A stretch of DNA of 64,000 nucleotides from Escherichia phage EI-SP-GF. Position numbers and translations under genes: made by a program. The DNA is taken from sequence record OR992645.1, one strand, 5' to 3'. Numbering within the stretch: the stretch's first letter is position 1; each line of letters starts with the position of its first letter. Positions 34,279 through 59,761 of the stretch are shown here, piece after piece. Below the pieces are notes generated by a model. That model saw only the letters and a list, made by a program, of their open reading frames with translations. It searched no databases and was not told the origin of the DNA.

Positions 34279-37056
34279 ATGAGTATGTGGTCTTTCGACC
34301 TGGAGGCCTCTGGTTTACTAGAAGACCTAGATCTTTATTATCACTGCGGCTTGTTTAAAGAGCTGAATAAGAACCGTTTTATGCTGTTCCTTCCTCTAAA
34401 TGACCGCACACACTACTCTGAAGAGGATATAGAGAAGGCTAAGAACTTTATTCTGGCAAAGAAAACTCTTTATAAAGATTTTGAAGTTCGCATAGCAGAT
34501 TTTTCAGAGTTGGAAGGTTGGCTTACAGGCAATTCTGACTGGTCACCCACAGCTTTGAACTGCCACAACTGCTACAGCTACGACTTTATGCTGATGGAGA
34601 GATTGTCCGGTATTCATTTTGATATGTTCCGTGACCCTAAGTGTATGGGGACTATCAACGACCACCAGGTTAATCTGTTTGATACGTTGGCGATGAGCCG
34701 AATCTTGTGGCCTGATCGCCCTTTACCAAAAGGTTGTCCGGACTCTGTATTCAACCCGGTTACTAAGAAAATGCAGCCTGTTGGTCCTCACGGACTTATG
34801 GCATGGGGCTACGCCCTTGGTAACCAGAAAGTTCAAATTGATGACTGGCGCGATCTTCCGTTGTGGAAGTATGTGGATCGTGTATTCGAGGACGTTATCA
34901 TCCAGGAGCTGCTCTGGAAAGAGCTGGTAGCGGAATCAAAAGGTGTATTCTACGGCAAATCTGACATGCAGAACTTTATGTACGATCCAGCCAAAGAGAA
35001 GCCGAAAGGGTTCAAGAAGATCACCTGGAAGAACGCATTACGTCGAGGCATGCTGCAGCACTTCCTGATGGAGCTGCAGGCCCGTCAGGGTGTATACTTC
35101 GACATAGATGGAGCTATTGCTTTACGTGACCGTTGCGATGCGTGGATGAAAGAAATAGCTGATCGTGTTGAACCACAACTGCCTTTAAAAGAGCTGTCAA
35201 TGTCTCAGCGGCCCAAGTTCCCTGAAAAGCCGTTTAACCAAGACGGGACAATCTCTAATAATGGTTGGAAATGGTTAAAAGATAAGCTTGGCTATCCTGT
35301 AGACATGAGCGCTTTAGAGTTCAAAGCCCCGCCTAAGAGAGCATTTACCTCTACAGGGGATGTCAGCAAGATGGGGATAAAATGGTGTGAAGAGATGGGC
35401 TGCAAAGACCCCGATAAGATGGCTGATTTCTTGAGAGGCTATATTAAGGGCACTTCCACACCACACCCTTTGCCTAAAGAGCTGATGGATCAGGCAATAA
35501 GTGATCTACAGCAGAAGCGAATGCCGGACTGCAAGATACCTATGAAAATCAGCAATCAGGACGACATTAAGCGGTATCTGATCAGCGCTGGCTGGCTCCC
35601 GACAATGTGGAGAACTAAGGATGTAACTAAAGACAGCAAGAAGAAAGCTCTACCTGATGCAGATGTTGATGCACGAGTATATGCTTATATGGACGAGCTT
35701 TTAGAGTCAGAGTATTGTGACCTAATTATCAACTTCTGGAACAAAACTGATGCTAAGTTCCAGACAACCGTGCACAAGTTCCGAAGCTTTCCTAACTCCG
35801 AAAGGATTAAAAAGGAAGTGTTCGGGAAAATACGTAGAAAAGCCAGGGCACTTATTACTTCTCCGCAACTGAAAGATACGTTTGGACACCTGTGTCCGAA
35901 TCTTGAAAAATTGAACGGAGAGATGGCTAAAGATATCGTCTTGTGGTTATCATTGCGAAACCGCAGATCGGTCCTTGACCCAATCAAGGAGGATAAGGTT
36001 GATACTGGTCTTCTTAATCACCCACGTTTGAAGATTGACCATAAGCTTCCTGCTAAAAGTTCTGGGCTAACAAACACTTCCAGACAGAAACACAGTATTT
36101 GTGCAAACATGCCTAAACCATCTCCTAAAGTGGTTATGGGTAAAGAGATGCGTAGTCTATGGGGTGTTCCTCCTGGATACTTTCAGATCGGTATTGACGG
36201 GTCCAACTTAGAGCAGCTTATCGGGGCTTGGGGTGCCTTTGAGTTCGACAACGGCCTGTATTATGATGTTGTAAGTAACGGAGACGCACACCAAAACAAT
36301 GCTGAGGCATATACAAAAGTAGCAGGCAGAGAGGTGTCCCGTAACGACGGTAAACCTATCACGTATGGTGTTATGTACGGGGCACAAAAAGATAAAGTTG
36401 CAGATATGCTGGACATCTCTCCAGAGTTGGGGCAAAGGGTAATAGATGCACTTTGGGATGCCAACCCCGGTCTTAAGGGGCGCAAAGAGGATCTGGAGAA
36501 ATTCTGGGAAGCAACAGGTAAGAAGTTTATCTACTCTTTTGACGGTCATGCTATTTGGACACGCTCTAAACACTCTTTGCTTAATGCATATCAGCAAAAT
36601 GGCGGTGCATCACTGTGTGACCTAGTTGGGATACTCATGCACCACCAGATGGTGAAGCGTGGATGGTATGATGAGGGTGTTCGTCGTATTATCTATTACC
36701 ATGACGAATATCAGCTTCAAGTGCCTGACACACCTAAGTATAAAACCGTATACACCTTCGACACAATTGAAGAGCTGGAAACATTTAAAGCCCAACAAGA
36801 GGCTAAACTTCATGTGTTCGACGGTCATAAGTACAAAAAGGCACGCAAAGATGAGGACGGAAACGAAGTGGTTGACAAGGATGGAAATACGGTATACGAT
36901 CCTATCTTGAACGATGACGGAAAGCTTGAACTTATCTGGAGCCCTGTGGGCGAAATGGTGGTGCATTGCTTCTGGCAGGCTTCTAAAATGATGGGCGTTC
37001 CGTTCCAGATCACAGGTGAATACTTGTGCGGTCGTAACTGGGGCGATTGTCACTAA
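34279..37056 (+). CDS. family-A DNA polymerase with 3'-5' exonuclease domain
   Basis: Exo I-like FDLEASG near the N-terminus; motif B-like R..GK.ITYGVMYG; motif C YYHDEYQ; 925 aa. Confidence 0.75.
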   Translation: MSMWSFDLEASGLLEDLDLYYHCGLFKELNKNRFMLFLPLNDRTHYSEEDIEKAKNFILAKKTLYKDFEVRIADFSELEGWLTGNSDWSPTALNCHNCYSYDFMLMERLSGIHFDMFRDPKCMGTINDHQVNLFDTLAMSRILWPDRPLPKGCPDSVFNPVTKKMQPVGPHGLMAWGYALGNQKVQIDDWRDLPLWKYVDRVFEDVIIQELLWKELVAESKGVFYGKSDMQNFMYDPAKEKPKGFKKITWKNALRRGMLQHFLMELQARQGVYFDIDGAIALRDRCDAWMKEIADRVEPQLPLKELSMSQRPKFPEKPFNQDGTISNNGWKWLKDKLGYPVDMSALEFKAPPKRAFTSTGDVSKMGIKWCEEMGCKDPDKMADFLRGYIKGTSTPHPLPKELMDQAISDLQQKRMPDCKIPMKISNQDDIKRYLISAGWLPTMWRTKDVTKDSKKKALPDADVDARVYAYMDELLESEYCDLIINFWNKTDAKFQTTVHKFRSFPNSERIKKEVFGKIRRKARALITSPQLKDTFGHLCPNLEKLNGEMAKDIVLWLSLRNRRSVLDPIKEDKVDTGLLNHPRLKIDHKLPAKSSGLTNTSRQKHSICANMPKPSPKVVMGKEMRSLWGVPPGYFQIGIDGSNLEQLIGAWGAFEFDNGLYYDVVSNGDAHQNNAEAYTKVAGREVSRNDGKPITYGVMYGAQKDKVADMLDISPELGQRVIDALWDANPGLKGRKEDLEKFWEATGKKFIYSFDGHAIWTRSKHSLLNAYQQNGGASLCDLVGILMHHQMVKRGWYDEGVRRIIYYHDEYQLQVPDTPKYKTVYTFDTIEELETFKAQQEAKLHVFDGHKYKKARKDEDGNEVVDKDGNTVYDPILNDDGKLELIWSPVGEMVVHCFWQASKMMGVPFQITGEYLCGRNWGDCH

Positions 37057-40260: not shown

Positions 40261-41531
40261 TGAGCGTTATTCAACAATTTGCCAACCCGATGAATCCGCG
40301 TGAAACTGTTTTACTGGCTCACGGTATGATTAAACGTGTCAGCATCAAGCCCATTAAAGGTGCTGATCCTACAACAGGTATTAAAACCACTGTGTGGCAA
40401 GGTAAGAAAATTGAATCCAGCCACACCATCTCTTTACTGATTTCTGAACTGGACTCCTCTGATAACCTGCTCCAAGGTGGTGAAGAAGTTTGGATCAGTA
40501 TGGGTGATAAACTGCTTAAGCATGGTCATCAAGACTCCGTCTCTGTTAAAATTGACGACAAGTGGGAAACCGTAACGCCAGGATGGATCGTAAATATCCC
40601 TTTGAAGGCAAACGAGCATAACGGCAAGACCTACTACAAAGGCTCACTGGCTAAAATGGTTAAGTTGGGGGCAGGAGAGGCTCCAGCAGCGCCACAGCAA
40701 CAAAAACAGCAACAAGGCACACAATCACAAGGCCAGAAGCAGAAACCTCAGCAGAATGCCAATCAGGACGTTTTACGCATCTATGGTGATGTGACTCAGA
40801 TTGTTGGCAACGTGGTTACTGTCAATGATCACAAGATTGGTGAAGGTGCTATGGTTGTCACGGATGAGCAGCTTAAAGACCTGGTGGTAGGTGGTCGTGT
40901 TGCAGCCATTGTTGACAAAGACACCGGAAACATTATCAGTGGTTTCAAAGCCTACCCACCTAAGGCAGAGAACGGTACACAAGGTTCTGGTGGTAAGCGT
41001 AAATCCTCTTACGACCCCATCGGTGTAGAGACAGGGCACAGTATCAATGCATTGCAGATCATCCTGGATCGCGGGTTTAAGATTGACAGCCCTTTAGATG
41101 TGGCTAAAACACTGCACGTGGTCACCATCGAGCTTAAGAAAGAGTACGCTCAAGCCACTAACCGAACTGAAGATGAAGTAGGTGCCAGTGTTGGTAATGC
41201 GGTATTGAACGCTTGTCGCCGTATTGACAAGAAAACGAAAGTTGATGATTTTGCAGTAGCAATTACTGCAGAGGCAAAAGATGTCTTGACTAATCTTGCT
41301 GAACCGTTGTATGATTGGATCAAGAACGGTGCTGGAGCCACTGACCATCAAGAGCCTCAAGCTGCCAAACAGGAAGCCGCCCCACAGCAAAACACTGTAG
41401 ACGCTCCTCCTGTAGATGATGCGGAAGACGACCCGATGGATCAGAATCCGGCACAGTACGACTTCTGTGATGACATACCTTTCGCTCCGGTAGGTCTGCA
41501 ATATGGTAAAAGTAGAATCTACGCATTGTAA
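40260..41531 (+). CDS. putative ssDNA-binding protein with Gln-rich linker and DDIPF motif
   Basis: Start at ATG overlapping the upstream stop (TAATG); low-complexity Q-rich linker; acidic C-terminal region containing DDIPF about 17 residues before the end; sits between polymerase and nuclease-like genes. Confidence 0.4.
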
Positions 41532-42126
41532 GAGGTGCATCAAGTGCGGAGAGGTGAAAAACCTCTCCGAGTTCTACAAACATCCAAAGATGGCTGACGG
41601 TCATCTTAATAAGTGCAAAGAGTGCTGTAAGAAGGCCAGCAGAGAGGCTGACCAGTTTTCCCACAACTCTTCGGAAAAAGGTGTAATACGCGTGCTGTAC
41701 AAGTCTCAAAAGTGCAACAGCAAGCAAAGAGGTCACCCTCCTCCGACTTACACCAAAAAAGAGTTTAAGGAGTGGCTATACCTAAACGGTTACAAAGAGT
41801 TGTATGATCAGTGGGTAGCCAGCGGATACGACAAAAGGAAAAAGCCTTCTTGTGACAGGATAGATGATTTCAAAGGGTACTCTTTTGATAATATCCGTTT
41901 AACGACTTGGGGAGAAAATAAAGATAAGCAGACGGAGGATATTCTGTTGCATAGAAGCACCAGCGGTAGACGGTGTAAAAATGTAAGGAGGCTGGACATG
42001 AATGGCAACGTTCTTAAAGAATGGGTATCCCACAATTCTTGCCGAAGAGAAACAGGGATATGTGTTGATTACTACATTCATGAAAAAATTCCAGCTCCCG
42101 ATGGATACCTCTATGAATACTTCTAA
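41503..42126 (+). CDS. HNH-like (degenerate) endonuclease / zinc-finger protein
   Basis: N-terminal CxxC...CxxCC cluster; later CDRIDD...[12 protein letters not shown] resembles an HNH core with the His replaced; start uncertain. Confidence 0.4.
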
Positions 42127-42700: not shown

Positions 42701-42898
42701 ATGATTTATCGAATCCGTGTGAGAGAAGATGCACCAGGTTGTTACTTTGACTGGCGTGGGTGGTGGTTTCTCCACCCAATGGATGGACTCACAGATAGAA
42801 TGCTAGATGCTGCCCTTTACACAGATACTGACATAGAGTATAATCTTTACTTGAAGGATGGTATCGATAACGGCCTGTTTGAAGCAATTCCTGCGTAA
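42701..42898 (+). CDS. hypothetical small protein
   Basis: 65-aa ORF with AGGAGG RBS. Confidence 0.35.
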   Translation: MIYRIRVREDAPGCYFDWRGWWFLHPMDGLTDRMLDAALYTDTDIEYNLYLKDGIDNGLFEAIPA

Positions 42899-42963: not shown

Positions 42964-43389
42964 ATGATTTATGAAATGCCAAAACTGATTCGTGACGATG
43001 CACGAAACGCCCACACCTTTATTATGGGCAAGCGCATGGATATTATTTGCCACAAAGACTTCTGGGAAGGAAGCTACTTCACAGAATATTTTGGAAAAAT
43101 GGATGATGGCCTACTGATCCAGTTTTACACCGATGCGGAAAACAACATTAGTTGGGAGTTCGAGACCGAAGATATCCATAAACTTTTCACCTTCCTCGAC
43201 ATTAAGGTTAAGGCCAAGTTTGAAGAAGGTGAGTGCGACGATTGTGGATTTTATGAGGTAACAGATTTCTATCTTCCGAGCGGTAAAAACCTTTACTATG
43301 AAAGCCACTTCGGTAACTCCAATATGCCACAGTGCTGGACTGAGTTTTTTGAAATTGTGGAAGAGGAGCTGGAATATCGTGATTATTGA
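42964..43389 (+). CDS. hypothetical protein
   Basis: 141-aa ORF, ATG start. Confidence 0.4.
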   Translation: MIYEMPKLIRDDARNAHTFIMGKRMDIICHKDFWEGSYFTEYFGKMDDGLLIQFYTDAENNISWEFETEDIHKLFTFLDIKVKAKFEEGECDDCGFYEVTDFYLPSGKNLYYESHFGNSNMPQCWTEFFEIVEEELEYRDY

Positions 43390-43837
43390 TACTGTAGAGG
43401 GAGATTTAATCTCCCTTTTTAAGAGCGGTGCTGGTCACCTGATCCACGGTTGTAACTGCTTCCACACAATGGGTAAGGGTGTAGCAAAACAGATTGCCCG
43501 TGAGTTCCCTCAAGCATTGGAAGCTGATAAAATGACTATGCACGGTTGCCTAAGCAAACTGGGCGCGTTCTCCCGCTGGGAGCACTTATCTCCGATAGGT
43601 ATTGTCTACGGAATAAATCTGTATACTCAGTTCTACCCAGGGCCTAATGCTGAATATTTCTCAATACTGAAAGGCTTTGAGCGAGTCAATGAAGTATTTG
43701 AGGGGTCGATTTTACCATTCTACATCCCTAAGATCGGGTGCGGCATAGGCGGTTTGAAGTGGGAACATGTAGAGGACATTATTAACCTTGCCACTTTTGA
43801 TATAGATATTATAGTGGTGGAGTACAAAGGGTGTTGA
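43379..43837 (+). CDS. macro-domain protein (TARG1/DarG-like ADP-ribose hydrolase fold)
   Basis: GTG start after GAGGAG; EGDLISLFKSGAGHLIHGCNCFHTMGKGVAKQIAREFP resembles, from memory, the TARG1-type macro-domain signature GDLF...AH.IS.DC.MGAGIA. Confidence 0.45.
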   Translation: MIIDTVEGDLISLFKSGAGHLIHGCNCFHTMGKGVAKQIAREFPQALEADKMTMHGCLSKLGAFSRWEHLSPIGIVYGINLYTQFYPGPNAEYFSILKGFERVNEVFEGSILPFYIPKIGCGIGGLKWEHVEDIINLATFDIDIIVVEYKGC

Positions 43838-43891
43838 CAGCTATATTTTAAGGTGGTATAGTCACCACAACGATTAAGACAGGGGAGCACT

Positions 43892-44086
43892 ATGGAGACT
43901 AAAATCCTAATTCTAGCTGTGATAGATACAACAGAAGGAGCCATGTTTGAATCTGCAGGAGGGTATTTCTACCTGCCCTATGGAAAAAGAACTTCCGAGC
44001 CGAGTAAAGATTCAATCCTCAAAGTGTTCCCGTGTGCTTTCTGGCTGGAGATTCTGGTAGAAGATTGCAGAGGACTAGGGAGATAA
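43892..44086 (+). CDS. hypothetical small protein
   Basis: 64-aa ORF with AGGGGAG RBS. Confidence 0.3.
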   Translation: METKILILAVIDTTEGAMFESAGGYFYLPYGKRTSEPSKDSILKVFPCAFWLEILVEDCRGLGR

Positions 44087-44088
44087 TT

Positions 44089-44283
44089 ATGAGAAACAAG
44101 AAAGAGCTTTACTCTGGTGAGTGGATAAACGATCAACAGGTAGGAGAGGTAACCTGCTTCCGGTGCTTTACTCGGTACAATCTTAAAACTGCACCAAAAA
44201 GTGTTCCAAAGACTGATGGTTATTACATAAAAGAACCCCATTGCCCGAAGTGTAAATGCCGATTATACTGGAGTAACCTGTAA
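44089..44283 (+). CDS. small zinc-ribbon protein
   Basis: CFRC...CPKC pair; ATG with GGGAGA RBS. Confidence 0.4.
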   Translation: MRNKKELYSGEWINDQQVGEVTCFRCFTRYNLKTAPKSVPKTDGYYIKEPHCPKCKCRLYWSNL

Positions 44284-44346
44284 AAGGTTGACATCTGAAA
44301 ACTGCAGTATATAATACAAACATAGACTAGCAGAGAGGGATAAATT

Positions 44347-57266: not shown

Positions 57267-57874
57267 GTCTGCTCTTCTCCTACCATAAACGGCCCTACCT
57301 GGCAAGTGGAATAATTGACTAGCCATCAATCCCACACACTGTACAAATATACATGGAAAATAACTATTGCATAATCTTTCATTGTGTGGTAGCAAGGCCA
57401 TTTTTACCCGTTTTCTCTCCCAAAAGTGCACGTAATGCAGCTATTGCACAAATTTTAACCTGATGCATATCTCCAATATCTTGTCAACAACTAAAAATCT
57501 TTATAAGTCATACACTTACACAGCATCGAAAGCGTGTTCTACGCGAAAAATCGAGTATAACTATAGCCGCCAGATCTCAGAATTCACGTACGCACGCCAT
57601 TCTATAGCCTGCAAAGTATTTATTCCAACCACAGAATAACGGAATAGTCAATACCTGCATAAAATAATTATTCGTGTAAACTGCATAACATAAATCAGCT
57701 CAGGTGTCAACATTTTTCGTAAACAGTCCGAAATTATCACGATGAGTTATCATAAACAGAGAAATCTTTAGTCGTCTAATGTTTACTGTACATTACTATA
57801 CTGACTGGAATCATTAGATGACTAAGAAAAAGATAAGAAATAATTAATAATGTAATTGTTTTACCTGTAACAAT

Positions 57875-58053
57875 AAGGCAACTATGCAAACGAATGGCAT
57901 GGCGCGACGGAGTCGCGACATAATATAAAAGCAGTAACCATCACCCCCGTGATGGTTTTTCTGCAATCTATTATTCAGATCATAGTTGCCTTGTATTTAG
58001 TTAATCATGACATAACAAGCAAGGCAACTGTAGATCTTCTAATAGTTGCCCTG
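57875..58053. repeat. alternating-orientation 12-mer repeats (ATAGTTGCCTTG family) plus a duplicated 20-mer
   Basis: ATAGTTGCC(T/C)TG at about 57983 and 58042, reverse complement at about 57875 and 58018; ATGCAAACGAATG(G/T)CATGGC at 57884 and 58142. Confidence 0.55.
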
Positions 58054-58174
58054 CTTTTATATTATGTCATAGATTATTAACTTATTAACTGTCAGCTTGT
58101 TGGCTGTTAGCTTGTCAATTGTTATCTTGTTAATTGTTTTCATGCAAACGAATGTCATGGCTTATCATCTCTGT

Positions 58175-58227
58175 GTAAACAGTTTGGGCGTAAACTATTC
58201 AGGCGTAAACAGTCTATGAGTAAACAG
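58175..58227. repeat. phased iteron array
   Basis: GTAAAC(A/T)(G/A) at 58175, 58190, 58205 and 58220, exactly 15 bp apart; further GTAAACAG copies at about 57719, 58532 and 59273 and inverted at about 58387. Confidence 0.6.
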
Positions 58228-59761
58228 TGAGATATGGAATAGTAACAGCCGTTATTGTGTCATATTGTGCTGCAGTGCGTTATGTTGTGCCATATTGTGT
58301 CACTATTATGTCAGACAAGTTTTTCCTCTCTTTGTCAAGTGCTGCATGAAAAATTTACAAACTGGTATGGTAGCATTTTTGCGGCCCTGTTTACATTCAG
58401 TTGTGTATGTATAACCCTTGTTGTGTGGGCGTTTAGACGTCTGGACGGTCAGAAGTCCGCAGGTTAATATCTAATCTATTGGCTGCTGACTATATCCCAC
58501 ACAAATAGTAAGAAATATAATTGTTATATGCGTAAACAGTAACCCATGTTATCAATCCCTGTATGTATCGCCAGTGGTGCGCATAATGGGTATTATGTTA
58601 AATTGCCCGTAATGATAACCATTCTCACAATGATAGGTATTCTCATTCACTCCCACAAGATAGATTGCAAATGTTGTGCCACTGTGTGAACGGCCTGGCC
58701 TATTAATTTGCCTCACTGCCTCGATATTTGAGAATTATTATAAAAATGAGAAGTATTCCCATTCCGTCCGCCTGGCAGCACTCCAGTCGCTACCGGCTCC
58801 TGACAGGGCAGCACTCCTGTAGGACAAGCACAAAATCGGGGCATAACTGCCTGTTCAGATATTTCTGGCTAACTCTTCAGGCCTGTGTGGGAAAAGCCAA
58901 CCTCTCCGGCGGCGGGGAGGGGTCAATTAAAAAATTTAGGTGGTGTATGAAGCGCTCTTCAGGCAAGGTGTGTATTATGGGATGAAACCCTCTTCAGGTG
59001 ATGATATTTGTGGGTGTGATATTTGCTGGAAAGCCAGATATGACGGGACTCCCGGCGGGGCAGGGGTAGTACAGGCAGGGAAAATGTGAGGATGTGGTGG
59101 GAGTAAATTGATCAGGCAGGTAGGATATGGAATATGTTACAAGTATGTTAAATATGGAGGCAGGATATTTGTAAGATTTGTGTGTAAAATCAAAGACTTA
59201 AGTGGTGTTGTGGTATTTTCTATAAATAATTCAAGTTTAATAGGTAATATTTGTCTCTATCCGCTTTGTGTGGTAAACAGATTCTAATTGAATTGGTTTA
59301 CAAGTGTATATAAAGTATACAAATTAAAGATATAAGAAACCCCCCTCCCCCTTCGGCTACCATTCACCTTTTCCTCTGACTGGTACTTAAACACTTATTC
59401 AGACTCTTCAGGTTATCACCCATATACTATATGGCAGTGACTGGTGTCCTCCGGCCCCTCTTTCGTCACCCGTCCGCTTCGCCATGCTAATGCCATAGCT
59501 AAAGGTTCGGTTGTTCACCCTGTTCACTCAGGTGTATCTCCATACCCCTTCAAACCGAAGAGAACAGAAAACCCGAATTACTCGGTAAAAGAAAAGAGAA
59601 GAACTTAATTTTATCAGGATAGGCAAGAATGTCAAGGGATGACTGCTCACTAAACAAGCAAACAGTCATGTGTGGTAGGTAAGTGATTGTGGTGGTGGAA
59701 AATTTAGTTGAAAGATGTGTTATAGTGCTTCCAGCACTTTAGCCGGGCGGCTAATTGTGTG

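What the first reader, a model, noticed from the sequence alone, without database searches (positions are those of the whole stretch)
43379..43837. Phage-encoded TARG1/DarG-like macro-domain protein (candidate ADP-ribosylation reversal / anti-defence factor)
The 153-aa product contains GDLISLFKSGAGHLIHGCNCFHTMGKGVAKQIAREFP, which from memory resembles the catalytic signature of TARG1-type macro domains. That fold removes ADP-ribose from proteins and, in DarG, from ssDNA thymidines modified by the DarT toxin. DarTG and other ADP-ribosylating systems act as anti-phage defences, so a phage-borne macro domain is a plausible counter-defence enzyme. It could alternatively degrade ADP-ribose-derived signalling molecules.
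Basis: partly seen in the sequence, partly recalled or inferred. Interest (0 to 1): 0.6.

Follow-up and report, generated by a model that had tools for sequence, protein, structure and literature searches.

The report
Phage anti-DarT2 macrodomain (T4 AdfM-like)
An early gene of an rV5-like E. coli phage encodes a small ADP-ribose-removing enzyme closely related to the T4 protein recently shown to protect phage from the bacterial DarTG2 defence, so it is a well-supported but ordinary new member of a known family.

Summary

It belongs to the Tk.4 family. It is 41% identical to T4 Tk.4 (E 7e-43) and 71% identical to the tk.4 gene of a Krischvirus, which sits in the T4 position. A 2025 preprint named T4 Tk.4 AdfM because a knockout becomes sensitive to DarTG2.

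The TARG1 Lys84/Asp125 and DarG Lys80 positions hold Gln84 and Gly124. Gln84 was present in all 243 aligned relatives. The constellation H23/N26/Q84/G122 matches Streptomyces SCO6735, a Gln-type macrodomain shown biochemically to cleave thymidine-linked ADP-ribose from DarT-modified DNA.

Three family members are fused to NADAR, the domain that reverses guanine ADP-ribosylation.

The protein is not a DarG: it has no Lys, no DarT-binding domain and no darT neighbour. Activity is untested for this phage.

Verdict: new member of a known kind, modest interest.

The parts
43379..43837 (+). Macrodomain gene (152 aa, GTG start, TGA stop); orthologue of the rV5 'Tk.4' gene and homologue of T4 tk.4/adfM
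43363..43368 (+). GAGGAG Shine-Dalgarno sequence 10 nt upstream of the GTG start, inside the end of the upstream ORF (translational coupling inferred)
   Evidence: read directly from the sequence
43445..43459 (+). Codons for H23-G24-C25-N26-C27 (catalytic loop 1). N26 is equivalent to DarG N22 and SCO6735 N27; H23 is equivalent to SCO6735 H24
   Evidence: H23 in 242 and N26 in 245 of 247 aligned family sequences
43616..43630 (+). Codons for N80-L-Y-T-Q84. Q84 occupies the position of TARG1 K84, DarG K80 and SCO6735 Q85
   Evidence: Q in 243 of 243 non-gap sequences
43736..43753 (+). Codons for G120-C-G122-I-G124-G125 (diphosphate-binding loop). G122 is equivalent to SCO6735 G128; G124 occupies the position of TARG1 D125
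42964..43389 (+). Upstream 141-aa ORF of unknown function (PHROG 8157). It overlaps the macrodomain start by 11 nt and is probably in the same early transcript. It is not a conserved partner outside Vequintavirus
42816..42844 (+). Sigma-70-like promoter match (TTTACA-17-TATAAT, 11/12) upstream of the two-gene unit; consensus match only
43834..43862 (+). Sigma-70-like promoter match (TTGACA-17-TATAGT, 11/12, TG extension) overlapping the stop codon; marks the start of the next early unit

Best explanation
The gene encodes a stand-alone, Gln-type ALC1-like macrodomain of the phage Tk.4/AdfM family.

Proposed mechanism:
1. The gene is transcribed early by host RNA polymerase (inferred from the promoter matches).
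2. The protein binds ADP-ribose attached to N3 of thymidine in phage ssDNA. That modification is placed at TNTC motifs by the host toxin DarT2 of DarTG2 systems.
3. The protein hydrolyses the base-ribose bond, releasing free ADP-ribose and restoring replicable, packageable DNA.

By analogy with SCO6735, Gln84, held in its rotamer by Asn26, positions the distal ribose. A backbone-held water next to His23/Gly24 starts the cleavage. The G120-G125 loop binds the diphosphate.

Shown here: the gene, the fold, family membership and the active-site constellation. Shown elsewhere for homologues: protection of T4 against DarTG2, and thymidine-ADPr hydrolysis by a Gln-type macrodomain. Inferred only: that this protein has that activity and that role.
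For: - Family: 41% identity and E 7e-43 to T4 Tk.4 over the full length; 71% to the tk.4 gene of Krischvirus kvi, which sits in the T4 position vs|tk.4|tk; the rV5 reference record already labels the orthologue 'Tk.4'.
- Function of the homologue: T4 tk.4 was the single significant hit on a DarTG2 host, and its knockout is DarTG2-sensitive.
- The active site is compatible with thymidine-ADPr hydrolysis. An HMM alignment places SCO6735 H24/N27/Q85/G128 on window H23/N26/Q84/G122. In SCO6735, Q85A abolishes and N27S nearly abolishes cleavage of DarT-modified DNA, and the enzyme rescues E. coli from DarT (PMC9411070). These residues are 98-100% conserved in 247 relatives.
- Domain fusion: the three longest family members carry a NADAR domain, the fold that reverses DarT1 guanine ADP-ribosylation.
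- The only hit in NCBIfam and in PADLOC is DarG.
- Setting: an early-type region dense in sigma-70-like promoters, 18 found against 9.0 +/- 2.7 in shuffles.
- The DarT2 motif TNTC is not avoided in the phage DNA, 2348 sites against 2202 +/- 38 in shuffles, so the DNA is an abundant target.
Against: - There is no experiment on this protein or on any Vequintavirus orthologue. The HIDEN-SEQ preprint studied the Vequintavirinae phage Bas54, but I found no DarTG2 test of it in the text.
- The T4 evidence is genetic only and comes from a preprint. Enzymatic removal of ADP-ribose by Tk.4 was stated there as 'likely', not shown.
- The Lys that is essential in DarG, TARG1 and the chimallivirus AdfM is absent.
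- The long 'mobile loop' credited with SCO6735's high DNA activity is also absent.
- Bacterial members of the family are stand-alone genes beside housekeeping genes (rpoC, a class I aminoacyl-tRNA synthetase, semialdehyde dehydrogenase). None lies next to a DarT. The ancestral role of the clade is therefore not antitoxin-like, and substrate range may be broader.
- SCO6735 itself also acts on protein and on uracil-linked RNA ADP-ribosylation.
Confidence: 0.65

Rival explanations
1. Broad-spectrum ADP-ribose eraser. The enzyme's main in vivo substrates would be ADP-ribosylated proteins or RNA (for example uracil-linked ADPr), made by host toxins or defence ADP-ribosyltransferases other than DarT2. 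Protection against DarT2 would be one activity among several.
For: SCO6735, the closest biochemically characterised active-site analogue, also hydrolyses protein ADPr and uracil-linked RNA ADPr. The family is very large, with 11,186 50%-identity clusters at E <= 1e-10, and present in about 2,800 phage records from many host genera. That breadth may exceed the distribution of DarTG2. Bacterial members lie in housekeeping contexts without DarT.
Against: In T4, tk.4 was the single significant hit in the DarTG2 screen; I saw no other phenotype for it in the passages I read. The NADAR fusions point to DNA-base de-ADP-ribosylation. SCO6735 is inactive on 2'-OH-linked RNA ADPr, and reports on phosphate-linked ADPr within the same paper conflict.
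Confidence: 0.17
2. Metabolite-level enzyme of the Poa1p type: an ADP-ribose-1''-phosphate phosphatase or O-acetyl-ADP-ribose deacetylase. It might process the product of the phage's own Sir2-family protein, so its role would lie in NAD/ADPR metabolism rather than in counter-defence.
Against: The Sir2 gene lies about 51 kb away, outside the window, and I did not check how it is distributed among phages that carry Tk.4. Poa1p has Ser, not Gln, at the Q84 position. The T4 knockout phenotype is specific to DarTG2. The 'phosphatase' label is an inherited annotation, not a test.
Confidence: 0.1
3. Binder or hydrolase of ADPR-derived immune signals (Thoeris gcADPR or His-ADPR), acting as a sponge or signal-degrading anti-Thoeris factor.
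For: Macrodomains can bind such signals: the type II Thoeris effector ThsA uses a macrodomain to bind His-ADPR. One fusion protein gave a weak ThsA_Macro Pfam hit.
Confidence: 0.04

Closest known systems
T4 Tk.4 = AdfM (anti-DarT factor macrodomain; HIDEN-SEQ preprint 10.1101/2025.11.20.689424)
   Same: Stand-alone phage macrodomain of about 150 aa. 41% identity over the full length (E 7e-43). Identical motifs HGCNCFHTMG, NLYTQF.PGPN and P.IG.GIG. Located in an early gene region. A Krischvirus tk.4 at the T4 locus is 71% identical to the window protein.
   Different: Different phage family (Vequintavirinae rather than Straboviridae) and different neighbours: an unknown 141-aa ORF instead of vs. 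The DarTG2 phenotype was shown only for T4.
Streptomyces coelicolor SCO6735 (PDB 5E3B; PMC9411070) and Bacteroides BT1257
   Different: Only about 23-24% identity. SCO6735 and BT1257 have a mobile loop five residues longer, which the phage protein lacks. They are cellular, not viral. The Val25 side chain is Gly24 here, although the proposed role is played by the backbone.
DarG2 antitoxin macrodomain (T. aquaticus / M. tuberculosis DarG; PDB 5M3E, 5M3I)
   Same: Same macrodomain class. Asn22 is conserved as N26, with identical 58-residue spacing to the catalytic position. DarG is the best single-sequence PDB hit and the only NCBIfam and PADLOC hit.
   Different: Lys80 is replaced by Gln. There is no C-terminal DarT-binding domain and no adjacent darT. 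The score is 47.6 bits against the equivalog cutoff of 250.
Chimallivirus AdfM (PhiKZ gp104; Cell Rep 2026, PMC13309987)
   Same: A phage-encoded stand-alone macrodomain proposed or shown to counter DarTG2 by removing DarT2 ADP-ribose from DNA.
   Different: PhiKZ-type AdfM is a true DarG-like Lys-type protein (N23/K78): 131-136 bits to the DarG models against 48-50 for the window protein, and only 21% identical to it. The two proteins that share the name 'AdfM' belong to different sub-lineages.
Human TARG1/OARD1
   Same: Best Foldseek match (E 2.8e-10, TM 0.78) and best profile match (3.4e-18). TARG1 also reverses thymidine-ADPr.
   Different: The catalytic dyad Lys84/Asp125 is replaced by Gln84/Gly124, so the covalent Lys mechanism is impossible.
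AdfN (phage NADAR proteins, anti-DarTG1)
   Same: Same counter-defence logic: an orphan antitoxin-like hydrolase carried by a phage. NADAR is fused to this macrodomain family in three metagenomic proteins.
   Different: An unrelated fold that is specific for guanine-ADPr. No NADAR was found in this window.

Membership tests
Macrodomain superfamily (Pfam PF01661) | Macro fold with ADP-ribose-binding loops | tested here: met
ALC1-like / TARG1-like macrodomain class | Closest structural and profile similarity to TARG1, DarG, Poa1p, SCO6735/BT1257 rather than to MacroD, PARG or viral macrodomains | tested here: met
TARG1 family | Catalytic dyad Lys84 / Asp125 | tested here: not met
   Profile alignment puts Gln84 on Lys84 and Gly124 on Asp125
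DarG (DarG2 antitoxin) | Catalytic Lys80 (T. aquaticus numbering) | tested here: not met
   Gln84 aligns to the Lys of Mtb DarG, PhiKZ AdfM and DE15. Gln is present in 243 of 243 non-gap family sequences
DarG (DarG2 antitoxin) | Asn22 of catalytic loop 1 | tested here: met
   N26 aligns to it. The spacing from N to the K/Q position is 58 residues in the window protein and SCO6735, matching T. aquaticus DarG N22-K80 as numbered. N is present in 245 of 247 sequences
DarG (DarG2 antitoxin) | C-terminal DarT-binding domain, and a score above the equivalog cutoff | tested here: not met
   The protein is 152 aa. It matches only positions 3-143 of the 338-position NF048014 model, at 47.6 bits against a cutoff of 250. 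PADLOC DarG gives 50.5 bits over positions 4-141 of 329
DarG (DarG2 antitoxin) | Encoded next to a darT toxin gene | tested here: not met
   The ten neighbouring ORFs scanned gave only a phage zinc-binding domain in Pfam (plus a sub-threshold ORF126-like match in the same protein), and the nine scanned against PHROGs were families of unknown function plus an endonuclease. The ten recurrent neighbour families scanned beside 80 bacterial homologues also include no DarT
SCO6735-type (Gln-type) thymidine-ADPr hydrolases | Gln at the DarG/TARG1 Lys position, locked by the loop-1 Asn, with His24 and Gly128 equivalents | tested here: met
   An HMM alignment places SCO6735 H24/N27/Q85/G128 on H23/N26/Q84/G122. 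The residue roles come from PMC9411070
SCO6735-type (Gln-type) thymidine-ADPr hydrolases | Mobile loop five residues longer than in DarG/TARG1 | tested here: not met
   After Q84 the window protein has FYPGPNAEY, against HGMKTGSKGAPVRY in SCO6735. Its loop has the DarG/TARG1 length
SCO6735-type (Gln-type) thymidine-ADPr hydrolases | Hydrolysis of thymidine-linked ADP-ribose on ssDNA | not testable with these tools
   Needs an enzyme assay on DarT2-modified oligonucleotides
Phage Tk.4 / AdfM (T4 type) | Full-length homology to T4 Tk.4 with the family motifs, encoded as a stand-alone phage gene | tested here: met
   41% identity, E 7e-43; 71% to the syntenic tk.4 of Krischvirus; PHROG 335 at 2e-60; the rV5 record names the orthologue Tk.4
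Phage Tk.4 / AdfM (T4 type) | Confers resistance to DarTG2 | not testable with these tools
   Shown only for T4; needs phage genetics
Poa1p (ADP-ribose-1''-phosphate phosphatase) | His23 and Ser30 of the HxCNC...S motif, and phosphatase activity | tested here: inconclusive

The most novel reading that the evidence does not exclude
Tk.4-type phage macrodomains would be a third, independent sub-lineage of ALC1-like macrodomains, combining a Gln-type catalytic site with a short mobile loop. Phages would have recruited it from stand-alone housekeeping macrodomains of bacteria, not from DarG2 antitoxins. On this reading the T4-type and PhiKZ-type proteins both called AdfM are convergent. The Gln-type enzymes might then be general erasers of base-linked ADP-ribose (T-ADPr on DNA, U-ADPr on RNA), protecting phages against several ART-based defences at once.
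Probability: 0.25. Interest if true: 0.5.

Novelty: new member of a known kind. Interest (0 to 1): 0.3.

Why it matters
DarTG2 systems defend E. coli, and rV5-like phages are widely isolated on pathogenic E. coli hosts such as O157:H7. Knowing that they carry an AdfM-type gene predicts resistance to DarTG2 and gives a simple marker for host-range prediction.

The analysis also shows that the name 'AdfM' now covers two mechanistically different macrodomains, a Lys type and a Gln type. It links the abundant Gln type, found in about 2,800 phage records, to the one biochemically characterised Gln-type thymidine-ADPr hydrolase. That gives a concrete mutational test: Q84A and N26S.

None of this changes current concepts. 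It extends them to another phage group.

Tried and rejected
- Upstream 141-aa ORF as a functional partner. It overlaps the macrodomain start, but it has no Pfam family, is unrelated to T4 Vs (E 14), and its Krischvirus homologues are not adjacent to tk.4. Rejected as a conserved partner.
- NADAR (AdfN) in the window. phmmer with three NADAR domains against the six-frame translation found nothing.
- A DarT or toxin-antitoxin context for bacterial homologues. In 80 loci the recurrent neighbours are lineage-specific housekeeping genes. Rejected.
- A phage-encoded ADP-ribosyltransferase that the macrodomain might reverse. None is annotated in the complete relative NHEP1; only a Sir2 gene, about 51 kb away.
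- Avoidance of the DarT2 motif. TNTC is not depleted; it is slightly enriched.
- The concern that Lys-to-Gln makes the protein inactive. Rejected after finding the SCO6735 precedent.
- The first MAFFT and phmmer alignments placed the BT1257 Gln three columns off. hmmalign to the family profile and L-INS-i corrected this.
- The LeRoux 2022 DarTG paper is not held in the library.

Full report
**The sequence and its origin.** The window is part of a Vequintavirus, an rV5-like E. coli myovirus. Window 43000-44300 is 98.6% identical to phage vB_EcoM-ECP32, and 115 phage records cover at least 80% of it at 80% identity or more.

**The gene.** An ORF on the + strand ends at 43837. The mechanical ORF starts at ATG 43298. 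Four points support this:
- T4 Tk.4 and Krischvirus kvi Tk.4 begin at exactly the homologous residue, and kvi has ATG there.
- A GAGGAG Shine-Dalgarno sequence lies 10 nt upstream.
- The family consensus begins there.
- ECP32 is annotated the same way.

The product is 152 aa, and the quoted peptide is residues 8-44. Within Vequintavirus the gene evolves under purifying selection, with dN/dS 0.12-0.21.

**Fold and class.** Pfam gives Macro at 31.8 bits against a cutoff of 22, and PHROGs gives family 335 at 2e-60. An AlphaFold2 model built on a 72-sequence alignment has pLDDT 96.1 and pTM 0.91.
- Foldseek ranks TARG1 first, at E 2.8e-10 and TM 0.78.
- The family profile hits TARG1 at 3.4e-18 and Mtb DarG at 6e-18.

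Fold comparison does not resolve the sub-family.

**Family.** The protein is 41% identical to T4 Tk.4 over its full length, at E 7e-43. It is 71% identical to the tk.4 gene of the T4-like Krischvirus kvi, which lies in the canonical position between vs and tk. The reference rV5 record already names the orthologue 'Tk.4'.

Relatives occur in 2,803 of 50,697 phage records. A library of 1.84 billion representative proteins holds 1,317 clusters at E <= 1e-30 and 11,186 at E <= 1e-10.

**What is known about relatives.** Two recent papers define phage 'AdfM' proteins.
- In T4, tk.4 was the single significant hit when a transposon library was grown on a DarTG2 host, and a clean knockout became DarTG2-sensitive. 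Enzymatic reversal was proposed but not shown (preprint 10.1101/2025.11.20.689424).
- In chimalliviruses, PhiKZ gp104 removes DarT2-made ADP-ribose from DNA in vitro and is needed on DarTG2 hosts. Its active-site residues are N23 and K78 (PMC13309987).

**Active site.** The window protein does not have the TARG1 or DarG catalytic residues. Profile and multiple alignments place Gln84 on TARG1 Lys84, on the corresponding Lys of Mtb DarG (T. aquaticus K80) and on PhiKZ Lys78. They place Gly124 on TARG1 Asp125.

This is not a lesion. Across 247 family sequences the key positions are almost invariant:

| Residue | Conserved in |
|---|---|
| Q84 | 243 of 243 non-gap |
| N26 | 245 |
| H23 | 242 |
| N80 | 243 |
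| G120 | 243 |
| G122 | 242 |

T4 Tk.4 has the same NLYTQF motif.

The literature resolves the apparent conflict. Streptomyces SCO6735 is an ALC1-like macrodomain with Gln85 at this position, and it cleaves thymidine-linked ADP-ribose from DarT-modified DNA faster than DarG or TARG1. Q85A abolishes activity, N27S nearly does, G128E reduces it, and the enzyme rescues E. coli from DarT (PMC9411070).

Aligning SCO6735 to the family HMM puts H24/N27/Q85/G128 on window H23/N26/Q84/G122. The one SCO6735 feature that is missing is its longer 'mobile loop'. The window protein has the short DarG/TARG1 length there.

**Membership.** The protein is not a DarG.
- It scores 47.6 bits against the NCBIfam DarG equivalog (cutoff 250) and 50.5 bits against the PADLOC DarG model, covering only the macro part. 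A PhiKZ-type AdfM scores 131-136 bits against the same models.
- It has no C-terminal DarT-binding domain and no darT neighbour.
- It is only 21-22% identical to the Lys-type phage proteins.

The two proteins called AdfM therefore represent different sub-lineages.

**Context elsewhere.**
- The three longest family members are fusions of this macrodomain with NADAR, the fold that reverses DarT1 guanine ADP-ribosylation (AdfN/DarG1). One of them sits on a contig whose other called genes mostly lack Pfam hits. This links the family to DNA-base de-ADP-ribosylation.
- An exact-pattern scan found the family in 346 stretches of the one-genome-per-species collection (185,579 species).
- In the 80 best loci the gene is a stand-alone gene of about 150 aa. 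It lies next to lineage-specific housekeeping genes such as rpoC, a class I aminoacyl-tRNA synthetase and semialdehyde dehydrogenase, never next to a DarT.
- This suggests that phages recruited a cellular stand-alone enzyme rather than an antitoxin.

**Context in the window.** The gene lies in the long array of small + strand genes downstream of the DNA polymerase. Sigma-70-like promoter matches there are twice as frequent as in shuffles, 18 against 9.0 +/- 2.7. One lies upstream of the preceding 141-aa ORF, whose end overlaps the macrodomain start, and another lies right after the macrodomain stop codon.

The 141-aa ORF has no known family. Its Krischvirus homologues are not next to tk.4, so it is not a conserved partner. 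The DarT2 target motif TNTC is not avoided in this DNA.

No NADAR is encoded in the window. No ADP-ribosyltransferase or NADAR is annotated in the complete relative NHEP1. That genome does encode a Sir2-family protein about 51 kb away.

**Conclusion.** The most likely function is an AdfM-type counter-defence enzyme that removes DarT2-made ADP-ribose from thymidines in phage DNA, using a Gln-type (SCO6735-like) mechanism. I give this a confidence of about 0.65. The rivals are:
- a broader eraser role on protein or RNA (0.17);
- a Poa1p-like metabolite hydrolase, possibly tied to the phage Sir2 (0.10);
- an ADPR-signal binder or hydrolase (0.04).

However, the family was already recognised in the annotation, and a homologue was functionally assigned in 2025. 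It is a new member of a known kind and of modest interest.

Noticed in passing
window 41483-42112 (ORF 41503..42126, +): A block of about 630 bp is absent from the close relatives ECP32 and NHEP1 but present in bov10K2. It carries a 207-aa endonuclease VII/HNH-like ORF (PHROG 1035, 1.4e-40). This looks like a free-standing homing-endonuclease gene with presence/absence polymorphism, about 1.2 kb upstream of the macrodomain gene.
   Followed up: partly
window 57600-58300 (repeats at 58175-58228, also 57719 and 58527; inverted repeat 57917-57934 / 58051-58068): An ORF-poor stretch holds iteron-like GTAAAC repeats at 15-bp spacing and a perfect 18-nt inverted repeat. The HIDEN-SEQ preprint reports that an intergenic region of about 2 kb in the Vequintavirinae phage Bas54 tolerates no transposon insertions. 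This may be the same origin or regulatory region.
   Followed up: partly
L091:17141-17821 (relative NHEP1, outside the window): A Vequintavirus relative encodes a Sir2-family protein (PF02146, 60.5 bits) next to a gene annotated as nucleotide pyrophosphohydrolase and near an RNA ligase. It is another NAD-consuming enzyme in the same genome as the macrodomain, and its role is unknown.
   Followed up: partly
P0147, P0221, P0230 (metagenomic proteins; L093:6001-7419): Natural fusions of the Gln-type macrodomain with NADAR, plus DUF4326 in P0147. They would be candidate dual erasers of thymine- and guanine-linked DNA ADP-ribosylation.
   Followed up: partly
search hits H14-H16, H19-H20 (MG0656xx records): Sixteen records named 'Campylobacter phage', with Campylobacter jejuni (or, in one record, Campylobacter) given as host, are about 92% identical to this E. 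coli Vequintavirus region. The host or name assignment in those records looks doubtful.
   Followed up: no
window 36291-36319 versus L092 (NHEP1 DNA polymerase gene): The NHEP1 DNA polymerase CDS is 3,747 nt against 2,778 nt in the window. The alignment breaks at window ~36300, with about 1 kb extra in NHEP1. This suggests an intein or intron-type insertion in the relative that is absent here.
   Followed up: no
window 44032-44283 (+): The small ORF two genes downstream carries a phage zinc-binding domain (PF23903, 1.5e-22). It is the only neighbour with any Pfam hit.
   Followed up: no
L019, L023, L045, L059, L081 (Hyphomicrobiaceae genomes): In these bacteria the family member lies about 70 nt downstream of a class I aminoacyl-tRNA synthetase gene. 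In T4 and Krischvirus, tk.4 is adjacent to vs, the valyl-tRNA synthetase modifier. Probably coincidence.
   Followed up: no
BFVD hit A0A481YV05 (Marseillevirus LCMAC103): The best viral structural match (TMq 0.93, 39% identity) is a 302-aa giant-virus protein named 'SNF2 subfamily protein'. This recalls the ALC1 architecture of an SNF2 ATPase joined to a Gln-type macrodomain.
   Followed up: no
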